The position numbers and the translations under genes are program-made. 64,000 nucleotides of DNA, taken from sequence record LC739530.1. The stretch is one strand, 5' to 3'. The notes under the pieces are model-generated. The model was not told the DNA's origin and did not search any database. It worked only from the letters and a program-made list of their open reading frames with translations. Origin of the DNA: Escherichia phage phiWec172. This document shows, piece after piece, positions 1 through 34,654 of the stretch. Each line of letters starts with the position of its first letter. Position 1 is the first letter of the stretch.

Positions 1-47
1 CCCCCCCCCCCGTTGATTGACAATTTACAGATTTTTATCAGGCTTGT

Positions 48-889: not shown

Positions 890-974
890 TTTTGAATCTC
901 CAGTTTAGGATTTAGTGGTAAAGCTCTTTATCTGGGGCTTAAGATACCAACTTTTAAGCCCCTTGTAAAGTACT
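890..974 (-). promoter_or_regulatory. Repeated intergenic cassette type A (hairpin GGGGCTTAA-11nt-TTAAGCCCC plus conserved leader with GGAGA RBS)
   Basis: Near-identical copies at 1684-1769, 2756-2843, 3240-3311; sits between stop of upstream gene and ATG of 347..889. Confidence 0.5.
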
Positions 975-2843: not shown

Positions 2844-3239
2844 TTAGTTAATTTTGAAAATTGTCACATAGCCGTCACTGCCGATTATTTGAGACACTCC
2901 AGCTTTTTCCACTGAATAGCCCATATTTTCAAGATGATAAACAGCATCATCATAACCATATGCGCCACCCTGATAACGTCTCTTATCGCATCTTATCAGG
3001 TTTTTACCACGTCCTGCAAGTGCATGGAGAATTGTTTTTTCACTTGAAAGAGTACCATCTAACATGGTTGCCGTGTAATGGTTGATTTTATTCCCGTTGA
3101 TATCATACTTAAAATTGAACGAGTGAACAACAATTATTTTGCCGTTAAATTTTTCATCAAGCGCCTTCTCTAATACATTACGAAAATTTTCTTTATTGAT
3201 GAATTTCGGTGCGCGGTATGCCATTTTTAAGTTCTCCAA
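2844..3239 (-). CDS. hypothetical protein
   Basis: 131-aa ORF. Confidence 0.4.
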   Translation of the reverse strand: MENLKMAYRAPKFINKENFRNVLEKALDEKFNGKIIVVHSFNFKYDINGNKINHYTATMLDGTLSSEKTILHALAGRGKNLIRCDKRRYQGGAYGYDDAVYHLENMGYSVEKAGVSQIIGSDGYVTIFKIN

Positions 3240-3311
3240 TTTAGGATTGAGTGGTAAAGCTCTTTATCTGGGGCTTAAGATACTACCTTTTTAAACCCCA
3301 TGTAAAGCACT
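3240..3311 (-). promoter_or_regulatory. Repeated intergenic cassette type A (imperfect hairpin)
   Basis: Same conserved leader GTGGTAAAGCTCTTTATCTGGGGCTTAAG... (plus-strand view). Confidence 0.45.
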
Positions 3312-3485: not shown

Positions 3486-3692
3486 TTAAACGTCATAGTA
3501 GTAAACTGCTGTATGTCTTGTAAACTGTCTTGTGTGATTTGTCAAATAACAATCTGACCTGATTGATGTATCAACATATTTATCAAAATCCTTTTCTGAG
3601 ATACGTTGCCATACATCACAAATAAGCATAAAGAAACGGCGCTTTTTAGTCTTGTTATTGTCTACAATCATCAATTGGCGTTGATATAACAT
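3486..3692 (-). CDS. hypothetical protein
   Basis: 68-aa ORF preceded by cassette B. Confidence 0.4.
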   Translation of the reverse strand: MLYQRQLMIVDNNKTKKRRFFMLICDVWQRISEKDFDKYVDTSIRSDCYLTNHTRQFTRHTAVYYYDV

Positions 3693-3770
3693 TTTAGAAT
3701 CTCCAGTTTAGGGAGTGGGCTTGCTTGCCCGTCTGATGCAAATATTACGTAAACCTGTTTTGTGTGTCAA
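3693..3770 (-). promoter_or_regulatory. Cassette type B with strong sigma70-like promoter (TTGACA-17-TAATAT), hairpin GGGC-6nt-GCCC and conserved RBS leader
   Basis: Minus-strand TTGACA at about 3765-3770, TAATAT at about 3742-3747, hairpin about 3717-3730. Confidence 0.45.
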
Positions 3771-4165
3771 TAGTTTTTATTAAATATTTTTGTAAGTTTG
3801 GGAGAGGAACGGGCGCGCACGACTACCACAAAACAGAACTACAATCAAGAATTATTTTTCAATCCGCTACAAATTTTTCTGTTGACTTTTCTTTTTAGAT
3901 GTGGTAGCCTTGTGAGAAATGGCGACATCCCCACCTACACCCACCTACCTGCACAATTCTAAAATGATTTTTCTTGCCCGACCTGATTTTTCTCTGCACG
4001 TTTTGAAAATGATTTTTCTATCCGGCGATGAGATTTTTTGGGATATCTGTACAGACCCCTCCAGATACCTGCACAAATTGAAAATGAAAAAGGCCGCCTT
4101 ACCTTAAATTTTTCAATGGGTTAGGCAGCCTTCTTAGATGATTTGTAGATACTGTGAAGTACTAA
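3771..4165. repeat. About 400-bp non-coding region with iteron-like direct repeats
   Basis: Three copies of CTGCAC(A/G)-N5-(A/G)AAAATGA at about 3949, 3995, 4069; tandem CACCTAC; GC island GGGCGCGC; no ORF with coding character (track ORF 3919..4107 looks spurious). Confidence 0.4.
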
Positions 4166-4945
4166 TCAGCTTATGAATTTGAACTTTTTAGAATACAGCA
4201 AGTAGTGAACTTCATCCTGATTTGTTGTGTAGATGTACGCTGCTGGGTAGTTATCAAAGAATACACCTTCATATCTTCCAAACGGGTCAACTGGGAACAT
4301 TTCACTGTTACACATACCCATCTCACTAACCAGAGGGTAACTAACCTCAACCTTGCCATCAACAAGCTGATAGAGGGTAACTTGATTAGTCTTCCCGTCA
4401 CTTAGCACGACACCATCATAGAATTGTGGTGCTGAGGTAGCATACTTAGTGGTAACTACACTTGCCATTGCTTCATCATAGACGTATAGGTACACATCAA
4501 CGTTATACATAACACTATTAATGAGGCTTTTCACAGCTTGTGCATCTAAACCGCCTATACCTGCCCCAATCATGGGTAAACCAATCTTACGAATGTTGTG
4601 CAGCCAGCAAAATTTACGGAGTTTTTCTAGTGACTCCACTAAGTATCGGTATGATGCACACTTCCCAACATCCAACTGTGTATATAGGTTAAAAATGTAA
4701 CCATACTCCGTTCGAGCATGTGACACCTCACCAGCCATCTGGTATCCGATATCATGGGCACTGTAGCCAAACTTTTTATGGAACTTCCGGTCAGCTTCTT
4801 CAGCTTTTGGGAAAATCTTAGCAATTTTTTGAGCGATTCCAGCACCCATGAGGTTACGACAGTTGCAACCATGAGCAATTAACTCAATGTCTGTGTTTTT
4901 GAAGGCAGCTAGTAAGTTACCTTTTACAACTTTTACAATACCCAT
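4166..4945 (-). CDS. Macro-domain (ADP-ribose-binding/processing) protein with C-terminal extension
   Basis: N-terminus VVKGNLLAAF..DIELIAHGCNCRNLMGAGIAQKIAKIFP resembles macro-domain core (compare YmdB [32 protein letters not shown]); about 90 extra C-terminal residues. Confidence 0.5.
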   Translation of the reverse strand: MGIVKVVKGNLLAAFKNTDIELIAHGCNCRNLMGAGIAQKIAKIFPKAEEADRKFHKKFGYSAHDIGYQMAGEVSHARTEYGYIFNLYTQLDVGKCASYRYLVESLEKLRKFCWLHNIRKIGLPMIGAGIGGLDAQAVKSLINSVMYNVDVYLYVYDEAMASVVTTKYATSAPQFYDGVVLSDGKTNQVTLYQLVDGKVEVSYPLVSEMGMCNSEMFPVDPFGRYEGVFFDNYPAAYIYTTNQDEVHYLLYSKKFKFIS

Positions 4946-6982: not shown

Positions 6983-7678
6983 TCAATGTTTAACTAACAT
7001 GGTTTTAATGTGTGGAAGGATTCTGTTCACCTTCTGCACATTCTTCTCTGTGTCTTCTATAAAACATACTATATTAAAGTAAGGCAGAATGCAAGACTGA
7101 ATTATCCTCACTTTCAAACTTTCTGCACTTATAGAGTTAGTCCCAAAACCACGCATAAAAAGCATGTAGTCATGCTCTGTGTTATGCCTTAAAAACATCT
7201 CAGTAGGTATTCTCTGAGATTCACCTCTCGCTGTCAAGAGTCCAACAGCAGCATGATTAGCAATTGCATCAATGATATTGAAAACATACGTCGGCTTTGC
7301 TCTTACAGAATCAAGAAGATTGGTATACTGCGAGAATGAACCGTCGGTCAATTCCGTTGAGCAATCTTCGTGATTAAAATTTGTAAGAACACCATCAATA
7401 TCTGCTAAGATGAGATTCCCTTTTTCTACAAGGTCTTTATTGACTATGACTAAGCTATCACGACTCACACCTATAGTTTGTCCAGTCTCTTTATCTACAA
7501 CATTCACAATTGGCTCTGATGTGTGGAACTCTTCGAGTGAACATACAACTTCTCTTGCGGTGTCTTCAAAATCCCTACACTGTTCTGGAGTCCATATGTC
7601 AGAATCAAGACCTAACTCATGAGGATGCAAGTCATAAGCATGGCACAGTACTTCATCAGACTTTCTTAATTTTTTCAT
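6983..7678 (-). CDS. HAD-superfamily phosphatase (possible nucleotidase)
   Basis: Motif LILADIDGVLTNF (DxDGT-type HAD motif I). Confidence 0.4.
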   Translation of the reverse strand: MKKLRKSDEVLCHAYDLHPHELGLDSDIWTPEQCRDFEDTAREVVCSLEEFHTSEPIVNVVDKETGQTIGVSRDSLVIVNKDLVEKGNLILADIDGVLTNFNHEDCSTELTDGSFSQYTNLLDSVRAKPTYVFNIIDAIANHAAVGLLTARGESQRIPTEMFLRHNTEHDYMLFMRGFGTNSISAESLKVRIIQSCILPYFNIVCFIEDTEKNVQKVNRILPHIKTMLVKH

Positions 7679-8235: not shown

Positions 8236-8266
8236 ATTATACAGCACTCTGCACAAAATACAAATA
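8236..8266 (-). promoter_or_regulatory. Candidate extended -10 promoter (TGTATAAT) for 7656..8204
   Basis: Minus-strand TGTATAAT at about 8236-8243, weak -35; strong SD AGGAGA upstream of ATG. Confidence 0.3.
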
Positions 8267-8293
8267 AAAAAGGCCGCCGAAGCAGCCTTTTAA
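8266..8293 (-). terminator. Intrinsic terminator downstream of rIIB (stem with one mismatch, UUCG loop, U-run)
   Basis: AAAGGCCGC-CGAA-GCAGCCTTT palindrome; T-run on minus strand. Confidence 0.45.
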
Positions 8294-34396: not shown

Positions 34397-34654
34397 GTAA
34401 GCCTCTTTTAAGTAGCTATTAAGTTTTAATCTTTTATCTTAACGTATTCTATACGTTATACTTTAAAGCTTTTTAAAAGCTATTAAATAATCTTTTAAGA
34501 GTTTTAAAGTATCTGTATAGTTAAACTGTTAAGTAACCTTTTAAGTAAAAACCCACTTCGCAAAGATTAACACCTTGTCAAGTACATTGTCAACTTGCTT
34601 TTTATAATTTTTTGCAGTAATGTATGAAGTTAACGGTTTTAGAGGGAGTAAAAA
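34397..34654. promoter_or_regulatory. AT-rich divergent control region (strand switch) with perfect TATAAT and strong RBS for DNA polymerase
   Basis: TATAAT at about 34603-34608 on plus strand; GGGAG SD 8 nt before ATG at 34655; genes diverge from this region. Confidence 0.4.

What the first reader, a model, noticed from the sequence alone, without database searches (positions are those of the whole stretch)
3771..4165. Repeat-rich 400-bp non-coding region between the macro-domain gene and the first cassette
This is the largest non-coding stretch in the early block. It holds three direct repeats of about 20 bp (CTGCAC(A/G)-N5-(A/G)AAAATGA at about 3949, 3995, 4069), a tandem CACCTAC pair, a GC island and a large-loop hairpin with T-run. 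The iteron-like spacing suggests a replication origin, protein-binding array or small RNA locus rather than a simple spacer.
Basis: seen in the sequence. Interest (0 to 1): 0.5.

Follow-up and report, generated by a model that had tools for sequence, protein, structure and literature searches.

The report
Conserved repeat array after phage terminator
A 473-bp gene-free stretch of a Felix O1-like coliphage holds a terminator, three copies of a 26-bp motif kept almost letter-perfect in all relatives examined, and a strong early promoter; the array is probably a docking site for an unidentified DNA-binding protein, possibly a replication origin, but this is untested.

Summary
The window is Escherichia phage phiWec174 (Felixounavirus). 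Read that way, the gap 3693-4165 holds three things in order. First comes the intrinsic terminator of the macro-domain gene. Then come three same-orientation copies of RG-N-W4-TCATTTT-N6-GTGCAG, the first overlapping the terminator T-run. Last is a strong sigma-70 promoter with an AT-rich upstream stretch.

The motif occurs nowhere else in the 86-kb genome except for one degenerate copy after the rIIB terminator. The array (3-5 copies) is kept in four Ounavirinae genera and in an uncultured Ounavirinae-like contig. 37 of 39 core columns are invariant across three genera, while the spacers are about 70% identical.

It is not coding, not a structured RNA, not a tRNA or Rfam family, and not the genome end, which lies about 6.3 kb away.

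My best reading is a cis-acting array of protein-binding DNA sites, most likely an iteron-type origin. Composition skew, helix stability, repeat spacing and the lack of any recognisable initiator do not support an origin. A terminator or boundary regulatory role is nearly as likely. The binding protein is unknown.

The parts
4166..4945 (-). Macro-domain ('phosphatase', Tk.4-like) gene, the last gene of the operon upstream of the gap
   Evidence: ORF and annotation. Pfam Macro PF01661 at 29 bits; phrog_335. Only about 41% identical to the macro proteins of most Felixounaviruses.
4076..4135 (-). Intrinsic terminator of the macro gene: imperfect hairpin 4087-4135 followed by the T-run TTTTTCATTTTC (4076-4087)
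   Evidence: MFE fold. The consensus hairpin is kept in 7 distinct relatives with 2 compensatory pairs. The homologous element is published as terminator t13 of Felix O1 (PMC3185647).
4069..4094 (-). Repeat copy A: GCCTTTTTCATTTTCAATTTGTGCAG. Its T-rich half is the terminator T-run.
3994..4019 (-). Second repeat copy (copy C of relatives): AGAAAAATCATTTTCAAAACGTGCAG. Homology to about 250 relatives ends exactly here.
3949..3974 (-). Third repeat copy (copy D): AGAAAAATCATTTTAGAATTGTGCAG
   Evidence: Its extended flank GGTCNGGCAAG is shared with copy 3 of phiEa21-4.
3919..3948 (.). G/C-skewed block holding the tandem CCCACCTAC(A/C). The G-rich strand is the minus strand here.
   Evidence: Second-highest |G4Hunter| window of the whole genome (-1.56), and the top window in every relative's locus. 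The sequence and the G-rich strand differ between two alleles.
3838..3890 (.). AT-rich block (74% AT over 3836-3900), nearly invariant across three genera
   Evidence: Invariant columns of alignment A1; AT content; it holds 2 of the 6 ATTTTTC heptamers found in the gap.
3882..3910 (+). Candidate antisense promoter: TTGACT (invariant), 17 nt, then TAGCCT. It points into the array.
   Evidence: Read from the sequence and A1. It fails the promoter scan because the -10 matches only 3 of 6. phiEa21-4 has TTGACG/18/TATACT in the equivalent place and orientation.
3800..3829 (.). GC island (GGGAGAGGAACGGGCGCGCACGACTACCAC), moderately conserved
3742..3799 (-). Strong sigma-70 promoter: -35 TTGACA at 3765-3770, 17 nt, -10 TAATAT at 3742-3747. 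It is preceded by an 87% AT, UP-like stretch at 3771-3799.
   Evidence: Promoter scan 10 of 12. TTGAC and TAnTAT are invariant in 14 phages while the spacer varies. AT content.
3693..3733 (-). 5' leader of the 68-aa gene: small hairpin GGGC..GCCC (3717-3730) and the conserved ribosome-binding region CCTAAACTGGAGATTCTAAAATG
8236..8271 (-). Solitary degenerate motif copy, TTTTTTATTTGTATTTTGTGCAG (8249-8271). It sits directly after the rIIB terminator and overlaps the -35/spacer of a promoter whose -10 is TATAAT (8236-8241).
   Evidence: GTGCAG and the layout are conserved in Mooglevirus 3HA14. The terminator is Felix O1 t2.

Best explanation
The repeats are a conserved cis-acting DNA element. 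They form an array of three (three to five in relatives) same-orientation recognition sites of about 26 bp (RG-N-W4-TCATTTT-N6-GTGCAG) for a sequence-specific DNA-binding protein that has not been identified.

The array starts on the T-run of the terminator that closes the lysin-to-macro operon. It is followed by a G/C-skewed block, an invariant AT-rich block and a strong host-type early promoter.

I commit to an iteron-type replication origin, or replisome-loading site, as the most likely function. On this reading the bound protein, helped by transcription from the adjacent promoter(s), opens the neighbouring AT-rich DNA.

Shown here:
- the anatomy of the gap;
- the uniqueness of the array in the genome;
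- its deep conservation;
- that it is neither coding nor a structured RNA.

Inferred, not shown:
- that a protein binds the sites (I put this at about 0.7);
- that the function is replication initiation (about 0.4).
For: - Uniqueness. The core occurs 3 times against 0.21 expected and nowhere else in the 86-kb genome, apart from one degenerate copy at 8249-8271.
- Orientation. All copies point the same way.
- Sequence conservation. 37 of 39 core columns are invariant in 14 phages of Felixounavirus, Suspvirus and Mooglevirus. The spacers are 70% identical and the N6 positions 78%.
- Layout conservation. The same order (macro gene, terminator, 4 repeats, promoter) is present in Erwinia phage phiEa21-4, whose flanks cannot be aligned. 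An uncultured Ounavirinae-like 88-kb contig (L168) also has the macro gene, the array and a downstream gene. No terminator was detected there by the scan. In L168 the array adjoins a 170-bp stretch of 77% AT that carries a second family of 18-nt repeats.
- Retention. About 255 of 257 related records match the gap, although the genes on both sides are swapped between phages.
- Copy number and spacing. Patterns are stereotyped across further metagenomic contigs.
- Not coding. Spacings of 37, 39, 41 and 73 break the reading frame, and no synonymous variation is seen in the core.
- Not a structured RNA. The phiEa21-4 array folds with z = +0.29, and there are no Rfam or tRNA hits.
- Neighbouring features. 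There is a strong promoter, an AT-rich invariant block, the densest A/T-tract cluster in the window (18 against 6.0 +/- 3.1 per 473 bp) and the most G4-prone block outside the C11 run at the record start.
- DnaA-box resemblance in two lineages. In phiEa21-4 and L168 the GTGCA half reads as a DnaA box with one or two mismatches.
- Precedent. T4 oriE combines a cluster of direct repeats with dependence on an early promoter (PMC3016281).
Against: - GC and AT skew do not change at 4 kb. They simply follow the transcription strand.
- The gap is not a helix-stability minimum. Its best 100-bp window is at the 89th percentile, whereas the divergent gap at 34397-34654 is the least stable DNA and coincides with the skew switch.
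- Spacing is irregular and not helically phased: 45 and 75 here, and 37-41 and 73 elsewhere.
- No Rep-like or other DNA-binding domain is recognisable in the 15 neighbouring proteins scanned.
- The phiWec174 sites match the DnaA box at only 6 of 9 positions.
- The first copy always overlaps a terminator T-run, and the solitary copy overlaps a promoter. Both point towards a transcriptional role.
- No experimental data on replication or binding exist for this group in the literature I could search.
Confidence: 0.4

Rival explanations
1. Transcription boundary or regulatory element. A protein bound to the sites acts as a roadblock or insulator. It reinforces termination of the lysin-to-macro operon and shields the downstream block of small early genes. 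The same protein also regulates the promoter that the solitary copy overlaps.
For: - Copy A overlaps the terminator T-run in Felixounavirus, Suspvirus and Mooglevirus.
- The only other copy in the genome also follows a terminator (rIIB t2). It covers roughly -45 to -20 of a TATAAT promoter, and this is conserved in Mooglevirus.
- All four sites lie in one transcription unit and share one orientation.
- The array separates a tightly packed operon from a block of genes that each have their own promoter.
Against: - A gene-specific regulatory site would be expected to be lost sometimes, because the flanking genes are exchanged freely. The array is essentially universal.
- phiEa21-4 has no motif at its rIIB-region terminators.
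- Copies B to D have no hairpin upstream of them.
- Felix O1 RT-PCR shows no clean difference in timing across this junction.
Confidence: 0.27
2. Antisense non-coding RNA locus. A transcript starts near 3917 on the + strand from TTGACT/17/TAGCCT, runs through the array and carries 3-4 copies of CUGCAC-N6-AAAAUGA as binding sites for a protein or RNA partner.
For: - The TTGACT and its AT-rich upstream stretch are invariant in three genera.
- phiEa21-4 has a good promoter, TTGACG/18/TATACT, in the same position and orientation.
Against: - The -10 is weak (TAGCCT, or TAAGAG lacking the -7 T) and fails the scan.
- There is no convincing + strand terminator.
- No conserved RNA fold is seen (z = -1.16 on the + strand) and no Rfam hit.
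- The A5/T5 tract next to the core flips between copies, which fits shape read-out on DNA better than an RNA motif.
Confidence: 0.1
3. Relic of duplicated terminator tails. The repeats serve only as islands of homology for recombination between mosaic modules and have no function of their own.
For: - Each unit looks like a terminator T-run plus downstream sequence.
- The rIIB and macro terminators of phiWec174 are paralogous.
- Mosaic breakpoints fall at motif copies (window 4012), and the 3-copy form looks like a deletion between copies B and C.
Against: Neutral relics would not keep 37 of 39 core columns invariant, with stereotyped copy number and spacing, across lineages whose flanks can no longer be aligned.
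Confidence: 0.08
4. Small protein gene on the + strand (3919-4107, 62 aa), with the repeats encoding an LH-x-x-KM peptide motif.
For: - The ORF exists, and the spacings 45 and 75 are multiples of 3.
- Several records annotate ORFs here.
Against: - Annotated ORFs differ in strand, frame and length.
- Spacings of 37, 39, 41 and 73 in relatives put the copies in different frames, with stop codons between them.
- No synonymous variation occurs in CTGCAC or AAAATG over 56 instances.
- No Shine-Dalgarno sequence is present.
Confidence: 0.02
5. Genome terminus or packaging (pac) site.
For: - Some database records and contigs begin or end near this region.
Against: - Felixounaviruses have direct terminal repeats of about 0.6 kb (Bal31 mapping for UAB_Phi87; PhageTerm for Pr103Blw).
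- The homologous sequence in phiWec174 is at record 82816-83429, about 6.3 kb from the array.
- The 74-bp end overlap in the TH10 record looks like an assembly artefact.
Confidence: 0.01

Closest known systems
Phage T4 oriE 'iterons' (cluster of 12-nt direct repeats near repEA/repEB)
   Same: A lytic myovirus has a cluster of short same-orientation direct repeats in one place in the genome. The cluster is conserved in syntenic regions of relatives and lies next to an early, host-type promoter. In T4 the link between the repeats and origin activity is also unproven (PMC3016281).
   Different: The T4 repeats are 12 nt and evenly spaced. Here the units are about 26 bp, irregularly spaced, and begin on a terminator. 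T4 oriE lies near a transcription and skew switch, and this site does not. No repEA/EB-like genes were identified.
Iteron origins of lambda-like phages and plasmids (lambda ori/O protein, P1, R6K, pSC101)
   Same: Three to five direct repeats of about 20 bp in one orientation, a neighbouring AT-rich segment, and activation by nearby transcription. A single extra site at a promoter recalls Rep autoregulation. (The comparator details come from my own knowledge.)
   Different: The spacing is not regular (about 22 bp) or helically phased. No adjacent initiator gene is recognisable. In phiWec174 there are no DnaA or IHF sites. The AT-rich segment is not a stability minimum.
Phage T5 injection-stop (iss) / repeat region 3
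   Same: A large untranslated region full of repeats that is far better conserved than the small, variable early ORFs beside it. It sits about 7-8% of the genome length in from a physical end. DnaA-box-like elements occur there, as they do here in the phiEa21-4 and L168 lineages only (bioRxiv 10.1101/866236).
   Different: The T5 region is 1.2-1.6 kb, lies inside a 10-kb terminal repeat, is dominated by inverted repeats and palindromes, and has paired DnaA boxes. Felix O1-like phages have terminal repeats of only about 0.6 kb, about 6 kb away. Two-step DNA entry has never been reported for them. There is no sequence similarity.
Protein-dependent terminator or fork-barrier arrays (Tus-Ter; TTF-I 'Sal box' repeats downstream of rRNA genes)
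   Same: Several asymmetric protein sites of about 20 bp in one orientation, placed at the 3' end of a transcription unit. (Comparator details from my own knowledge.)
   Different: These are different organisms and proteins. No evidence here bears on polar arrest of either RNA polymerase or replication forks.
MarA/SoxS/Rob 'marbox' (AYnGCACnnWnnRYYAAAYn)
   Same: An asymmetric site of about 20 bp with a GCAC element and an A-rich element roughly one helical turn apart. It can overlap a -35 region, as the solitary copy does. (Comparator details from my own knowledge.)
   Different: The spacing is GCAC-N6-AAAAT rather than GCAC-N7-YAAAY, and only 9 of 14 specified positions match. The resemblance is in architecture only.

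Membership tests
Iteron-type replication origin | Three or more direct repeats of about 17-26 bp in one orientation, clustered at a single locus | tested here: met
   3 copies here and 3-5 in relatives. The array is unique in the genome.
Iteron-type replication origin | Regular, helically phased spacing of the repeats | tested here: not met
   Spacings are 45 and 75 here, and 73/39/45, 75/41/45 and 37/37/39 in relatives. A/T tracts are not phased (R <= 0.24).
Iteron-type replication origin | Adjacent easily melted AT-rich unwinding element | tested here: inconclusive
   There is a 74% AT invariant block at 3836-3900 and an 87% AT stretch at 3771-3799. However, the best 100-bp window is only at the 89th percentile of the window. 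L168 has a 77% AT, 170-bp stretch beside its array.
Iteron-type replication origin | Cognate initiator protein (usually encoded nearby) that binds the repeats | tested here: inconclusive
   No DNA-binding or Rep domain was found in the 15 neighbouring proteins scanned with Pfam and PHROGs. Most are families of unknown function. Binding itself cannot be tested here.
Iteron-type replication origin | Strand-composition (GC/AT skew) switch at the site | tested here: not met
   Skew keeps the same sign across 1-34 kb and switches at about 34 kb, where transcription diverges.
Iteron-type replication origin | Replication initiates here in vivo | not testable with these tools
   This needs marker-frequency sequencing or 2D gels. 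No such data were found for Felix O1-like phages.
DnaA-box cluster (oriC-like, T5 iss-like) | Several TTWTNCACA boxes with at most 1 mismatch | tested here: not met
   The phiWec174 gap has 1 such site, at background density, and the motif-associated 9-mers match at 6 of 9. In contrast, phiEa21-4 has 5 sites in 459 bp (the motif 9-mers match at 8 of 9), and L168 has 5 sites in 707 bp.
Intrinsic (rho-independent) terminator (the hairpin plus T-run) | GC-rich hairpin directly followed by a T-run, just after a stop codon on the coding strand, with the structure conserved | tested here: met
   Fold. 16-pair consensus with 2 compensatory pairs in relatives. Published as Felix O1 t13.
Sigma-70 promoter (3742-3770, minus strand) | -35 and -10 hexamers near consensus at 17-nt spacing, with the hexamers conserved while the spacer drifts | tested here: met
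   TTGACA/17/TAATAT matches 10 of 12. TTGAC and TAnTAT are invariant in 14 phages. Activity itself was not tested.
Small structured RNA or known RNA family | Match to an Rfam family, or a conserved fold with covariation, bounded by a promoter and a terminator | tested here: not met
   The best Rfam E-value is 0.21, on the terminator hairpin. There are no tRNAs. Folding z-scores are -2.5 (driven by the terminator), -1.2 and +0.3.
Protein-coding small ORF | Reading frame and start codon conserved in relatives, with substitutions biased to synonymous sites | tested here: not met
   Frames differ between copies and between lineages, and the core is invariant at all codon positions.
Genome terminus or pac site of a DTR phage | Coincides with or abuts the direct terminal repeat | tested here: not met
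   The DTR homologue is at record 82816-83429, about 6.3 kb away.
T5-type injection stop region | Conserved untranslated repeat region about 8% in from the end that enters first, flanked by variable pre-early genes | tested here: inconclusive
   The position (about 7% from an end, in two lineages) and the contrast between a conserved gap and variable small genes both fit. The palindromes, paired DnaA boxes and long terminal repeat are absent.
T5-type injection stop region | Two-step DNA transfer that halts at the site | not testable with these tools
   No report for Felix O1-like phages was found. It needs shear or time-resolved entry experiments.

The most novel reading that the evidence does not exclude
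The array and its flanking blocks could be a DNA-entry control site analogous to the phage T5 injection-stop signal, in a myovirus where two-step entry has never been described.

On this reading, the roughly 6.3 kb between one physical end and the array enters first. That stretch is a block of about 20 small, highly variable genes, each with its own strong host-type promoter. Entry, or use of the rest of the genome, then pauses at the protein-bound array until early products act.

The evidence does not exclude this. The position (about 7% from the end in two lineages), the pattern of a conserved gap beside variable genes, and the DnaA-box-like half-sites in two lineages all parallel T5.
Probability: 0.05. 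Interest if true: 0.8.

Novelty: new variant of a known kind. Interest (0 to 1): 0.45.

Why it matters
Felix O1-like phages are classic Salmonella typing phages and common candidates for therapy and biocontrol. Even so, their replication origin, their temporal control of transcription and almost all of their non-coding DNA are uncharacterised.

- This array is the most conserved non-coding element found here in the subfamily. It outlasts the genes on both sides.
- If it is the origin, it gives a handle for replication studies and for building phage-dependent replicons.
- If it is a boundary or regulatory element, it points to an unknown DNA-binding factor that organises early gene expression.
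- In either case, engineering projects that use this 'empty' gap as an insertion site should avoid the motif copies.
- The 26-mer is a ready-made bait for identifying the binding protein.

Tried and rejected
- tRNA or tmRNA: ARAGORN finds none in the window.
- Rfam: nothing beyond chance.
- Structured RNA: no excess stability outside the terminator.
- Sigma-70 promoter reading of the motif: in the sense orientation only some copies have a TAnnnT 17 nt after a TTTTCA (for example Mordin copy A). In the antisense orientation only two phiEa21-4 copies qualify. The distance from GTGCAG to the -10 differs between the solitary copy (7 nt) and the array copies (1 nt).
- Sigma-54, CRP, Fis, IHF, Fur, OmpR and CsrA consensus comparisons by eye: no consistent match.
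- Marbox: the spacing is off by one base.
- DnaA boxes: not met in phiWec174.
- Intrinsic curvature: the A/T tracts are dense but not phased.
- Inversion of the G/C-skewed block between the two alleles: only weak support (8 of 500 shuffles in one comparison, not significant in three others).
- Genome end: rejected.
- Pakpunavirus, which also has a macro gene, lacks the gap.
- Motif scans of IMG/VR and metagenomes: apart from Ounavirinae-like contigs, all hits were chance matches or unrelated tandem repeats. L147 looked similar but is an unrelated GC-rich phage.
- Neighbouring proteins: no DNA-binding domain found.
- Literature: no description of this array, and no origin mapping for the group. 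The supplementary intergenic fitness data of the PhageMaP Bas63 study are not held.
- One literature search was badly framed and returned nothing relevant.
Full report
**Identity and orientation.** The window is positions 1-64000 of Escherichia phage phiWec174 (LC739531.1, Felixounavirus, Ounavirinae; 100% identity). All genes in the first 12 kb lie on the minus strand, so the finding has to be read right to left. The gene at 4166-4945 is a macro-domain protein (Pfam PF01661, phrog_335). The next gene is a 68-aa ORF at 3486-3692. The non-coding gap is therefore 3693-4165 (473 bp), by far the largest in this block, where the other gaps are 12-100 bp.

**Check of the observation.**
- The three repeats start at 3949, 3994 and 4069 and are found in register by the repeat finder.
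- The sharper minus-strand core TCATTTT-N6-GTGCAG hits exactly these three places against 0.21 expected, and 0 of 100 shuffles reach three.
- The core has no further exact copy in the complete 85,991-bp genome.
- The CACCTAC pair is a 10-bp tandem at 3930-3948. The GC island is 3800-3829.
- The 'large-loop hairpin with T-run' is a long imperfect hairpin at 4087-4135, followed on the minus strand by TTTTTCATTTTC.

**Anatomy on the transcribed strand.** Reading 5' to 3' on the minus strand:
- the stop codon of the macro gene;
- the terminator hairpin and T-run (4135-4076);
- repeat copy A (4094-4069), whose T-rich half is the T-run itself;
- a spacer;
- the second copy (4019-3994);
- the third copy (3974-3949);
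- a G/C-skewed block (3948-3919);
- an AT-rich block (3890-3838);
- a GC island (3829-3800);
- an 87% AT stretch (3799-3771);
- the promoter TTGACA/17/TAATAT (3770-3742);
- a short leader hairpin and a ribosome-binding region;
- the ATG at 3692.

*The terminator.* It is well supported. The hairpin is kept in relatives with different sequences and two compensatory pairs. The homologous element is listed as terminator t13 of Felix O1 (PMC3185647).

*The promoter.* It is supported by consensus (10 of 12) and by the invariance of TTGAC and TAnTAT in 14 phages while the spacer varies.

**Conservation.**
- The gap matches 255 phage records. In most, homology to the left part ends exactly at window 4012, which is the edge of the second repeat.
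- I aligned 14 phages from Felixounavirus, Suspvirus and Mooglevirus (A1). Four of them (phiWec174, finno, BPS17L1, Si3) have three copies with spacings of 75 and 45. The other ten have four copies with spacings of 73 or 75, 39 or 41, and 45.
- Across 56 instances (34 unique), the consensus is RG-N-W4-TCATTTT-caAwty-GTGCAG-gta.
- Leaving out the copy that is absent from four phages, 37 of 39 core columns are invariant. The N6 positions are 78% identical and the inter-repeat spacers 70%.
- Further IMG/VR and metagenome contigs show the same stereotyped spacings.
- Erwinia phage phiEa21-4 (Kolesnikvirus) has a macro protein only about 40% identical and a gap that cannot be aligned. It nevertheless has the same layout: macro gene, terminator, four repeats TTTTTCATTTTCAATTTGTGCATAG at spacings 37, 37 and 39, then TTGACT/17/TATATT and the next gene.
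- A third deep lineage is an uncultured 88-kb contig (L168), whose proteins are 40-58% identical to both of the others. It again has the macro gene followed by five copies (three exact, two degenerate) of AAATTCATTTTAAAAACGTGCATAGG. Next to that array lie a 170-bp stretch of 77% AT and a second family of four 18-nt repeats. No cultured relative is in the phage collection.
- Pakpunaviruses, which also carry a macro gene, have no such gap.
- All motif hits outside Ounavirinae-like contigs were chance matches or unrelated tandem repeats.

**A fifth site.** Relaxing the pattern to ATTT-N6-9-GTGCA gives five hits in the genome: the three array copies, one chance hit inside a tRNA, and TTTTTTATTTGTATTTTGTGCAG at 8249-8271 on the minus strand.
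- This solitary copy directly follows the rIIB terminator (Felix O1 t2).
- It overlaps the -35/spacer of a promoter whose -10 is TATAAT (8236-8241).
- GTGCAG and the layout are kept in a Mooglevirus at 78% overall identity.
- The operon between this site and the array encodes an SLT-like protein, a PseT-like polynucleotide kinase, Rz/Rz1-like spanins, several proteins of unknown function and the macro protein. None has a recognisable DNA-binding domain.

**What it is not.**
- *Not coding.* The + strand ORF at 3919-4107 runs through the repeats, and various records annotate ORFs here. These differ in strand, frame and length. The spacings 37, 39, 41 and 73 put copies in different frames, and the cores show no synonymous variation.
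- *Not a known or structured RNA.* There are no tRNAs and no Rfam match better than E = 0.21. Outside the terminator the region folds no better than shuffles: + strand z = -1.16 and phiEa21-4 array z = +0.29.
- *Not the genome end.*
  - Felixounaviruses have direct terminal repeats of about 0.6 kb: 608 bp by Bal31 for UAB_Phi87 (PMC4837284), and 581 bp by PhageTerm for Pr103Blw (PMC8303462), annotated at that record's ends.
  - The homologous sequence in phiWec174 lies at record 82816-83429, inside an unannotated 1.8-kb gap.
  - The array therefore lies about 6.3 kb (7%) in from one physical end. In phiEa21-4 it lies about 7 kb from the equivalent non-coding gap.
- *Not a consistent sigma-70 promoter in either orientation.*
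  - Some copies have promoter-like hexamers: Mordin copy A in the sense orientation, and two phiEa21-4 copies in the antisense orientation.
  - This is not conserved.
  - The distance from GTGCAG to a -10 differs between the solitary copy (7 nt) and the array copies (1 nt).

**Tests of the origin idea.** Features that fit:
- the array is unique, same-orientation, deeply conserved and universally retained, even though the flanking genes are swapped (the phiWec174 macro allele is only about 41% identical to the common one);
- it is accompanied by an AT-rich invariant block;
- the gap has the densest cluster of A/T tracts in the window (18 against 6.0 +/- 3.1 per 473 bp) and holds 6 of the window's 13 ATTTTTC heptamers;
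- the adjacent block is the most G4-prone in the genome apart from the C11 run at the record start. In most relatives this block is the homopurine mirror repeat GGGGAGAGGGGGAGTAAGAGGGGGAGAGGGG;
- one strong promoter and one candidate promoter lie close by;
- in phiEa21-4 and L168 the GTGCA half reads as a DnaA box with one or two mismatches, and L168's AT-rich stretch holds TTWTTAACA-type boxes;
- T4 oriE offers a precedent for a repeat cluster next to an early promoter.

Features that do not fit:
- GC and AT skew do not change at 4 kb;
- the gap is not a helix-stability minimum, whereas the divergent gap at 34397-34654 is the least stable DNA in the window, coincides with the skew switch and contains a 27-nt palindrome;
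- the spacing is irregular and unphased;
- no initiator is recognisable;
- the phiWec174 sites match the DnaA box at only 6 of 9 positions, and the gap has only background density of such boxes.

**Verdict on mechanism.**
- The robust conclusion is that this is a cis-acting DNA element made of repeated, asymmetric recognition sites of about 26 bp. The A5/T5 tract beside the core flips polarity between copies, which suggests that DNA shape is read next to a base-specific core. I put the probability that a protein binds these sites at about 0.7.
- For function I commit to an iteron-type origin or replisome-loading site, at about 0.4.
- A terminator-reinforcing, boundary or regulatory role is close behind, at about 0.27. 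Two facts favour it: copy A always sits on a terminator T-run, and the solitary copy sits on a promoter.
- An antisense RNA crossing the array (about 0.1) and a functionless relic (about 0.08) are less likely.
- A T5-like DNA-entry stop is the most novel reading not excluded, at about 0.05. It has positional parallels only.

**Novelty.**
- The terminator and the neighbouring promoter-stem-loop repeats are already described for Felix O1.
- I found no description of this array, nor any origin mapping for the group, in the searchable literature.
- It is best classed as a new variant of a known kind of element, a conserved phage direct-repeat array of the iteron type, whose binding partner and function are unknown.

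Noticed in passing
window 8236-8271 (minus strand): A solitary degenerate copy of the array motif sits directly after the rIIB terminator. It overlaps the -35/spacer of a promoter with a consensus TATAAT. The operon it heads ends at the array 4.1 kb downstream.
   Followed up: partly
window 34397-34654: This is a divergent intergenic gap. It is the least stable DNA in the window, coincides with the sign switch of GC and AT skew at about 34 kb, and holds a 27-nt near-palindrome (34458-34512) and 23-nt direct repeats. It is a compositional candidate for a replication origin.
   Followed up: partly
window 890-974, 1684-1769, 2756-2843, 3225-3311 (and a second family at 1179-1278, 2043-2132): Repeated intergenic cassettes. 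Each has a -35 TTTACA followed by a GGGGCTTA...TAAGCCCC stem-loop that contains the -10, then a near-identical ribosome-binding region CCTAAACTGGAGATTCNAAAATG. They correspond to the 57-bp and 39-bp direct repeats reported for Felix O1. From memory, they resemble the T4 promoter-early stem-loops.
   Followed up: partly
L017 18223-20007 (phiWec174 record 82223-84007, outside the window): An unannotated 1.8-kb gap where convergent gene blocks meet. It contains the homologue (82816-83429, 89% identical) of the 581-bp direct terminal repeat of phage Pr103Blw, so the physical genome ends probably lie here.
   Followed up: partly
window 1-11: The record starts with a run of eleven C. This is the highest |G4Hunter| window of the genome and is probably a record-start or assembly artefact.
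   Followed up: no
window 3919-3948, and the equivalent block in L003, L005-L007, L009-L013: The block next to the array exists as two unrelated-looking alleles. phiWec174, finno, pEC-M719, Meda and Ro111lw have the CCCACCTAC tandem, with the G-rich strand on the sense strand. Most others have a perfect homopurine mirror repeat and canonical G4 motif (GGGGAGAGGGGGAGTAAGAGGGGGAGAGGGG) on the antisense strand. An inversion is only weakly supported.
   Followed up: partly
window 4166-4945: The macro-domain protein of phiWec174 is only about 41% identical to that of most Felixounaviruses, and just 12 records are 95% identical or more. This looks like an allele replacement whose left boundary falls at the second repeat copy (window 4012).
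   Followed up: partly
window 3693-4165: Six of the 13 ATTTTTC heptamers in the 64-kb window lie in this gap, all on the + strand, and two pairs are 19 bp apart. The gap also has the highest density of A/T tracts of 4 or more in the window, but the tracts are not helically phased.
   Followed up: partly
L168 596-766 (IMGVR_UViG_3300045988_063805): An uncultured Ounavirinae-like contig has a 170-bp stretch of 77% AT beside its motif array. The stretch holds four copies of an 18-nt repeat (GTTAATGAGTTGTTAAAA) and several TTWTTAACA boxes, which resemble the variant DnaA boxes described for T5.
   Followed up: partly
window 6983-7678 and 4166-4945: The operon upstream of the gap combines a PseT-like polynucleotide kinase/phosphatase (phrog_3970) with the macro-domain (Tk.4-like) protein. 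This pairing suggests RNA repair or ADP-ribose metabolism.
   Followed up: no
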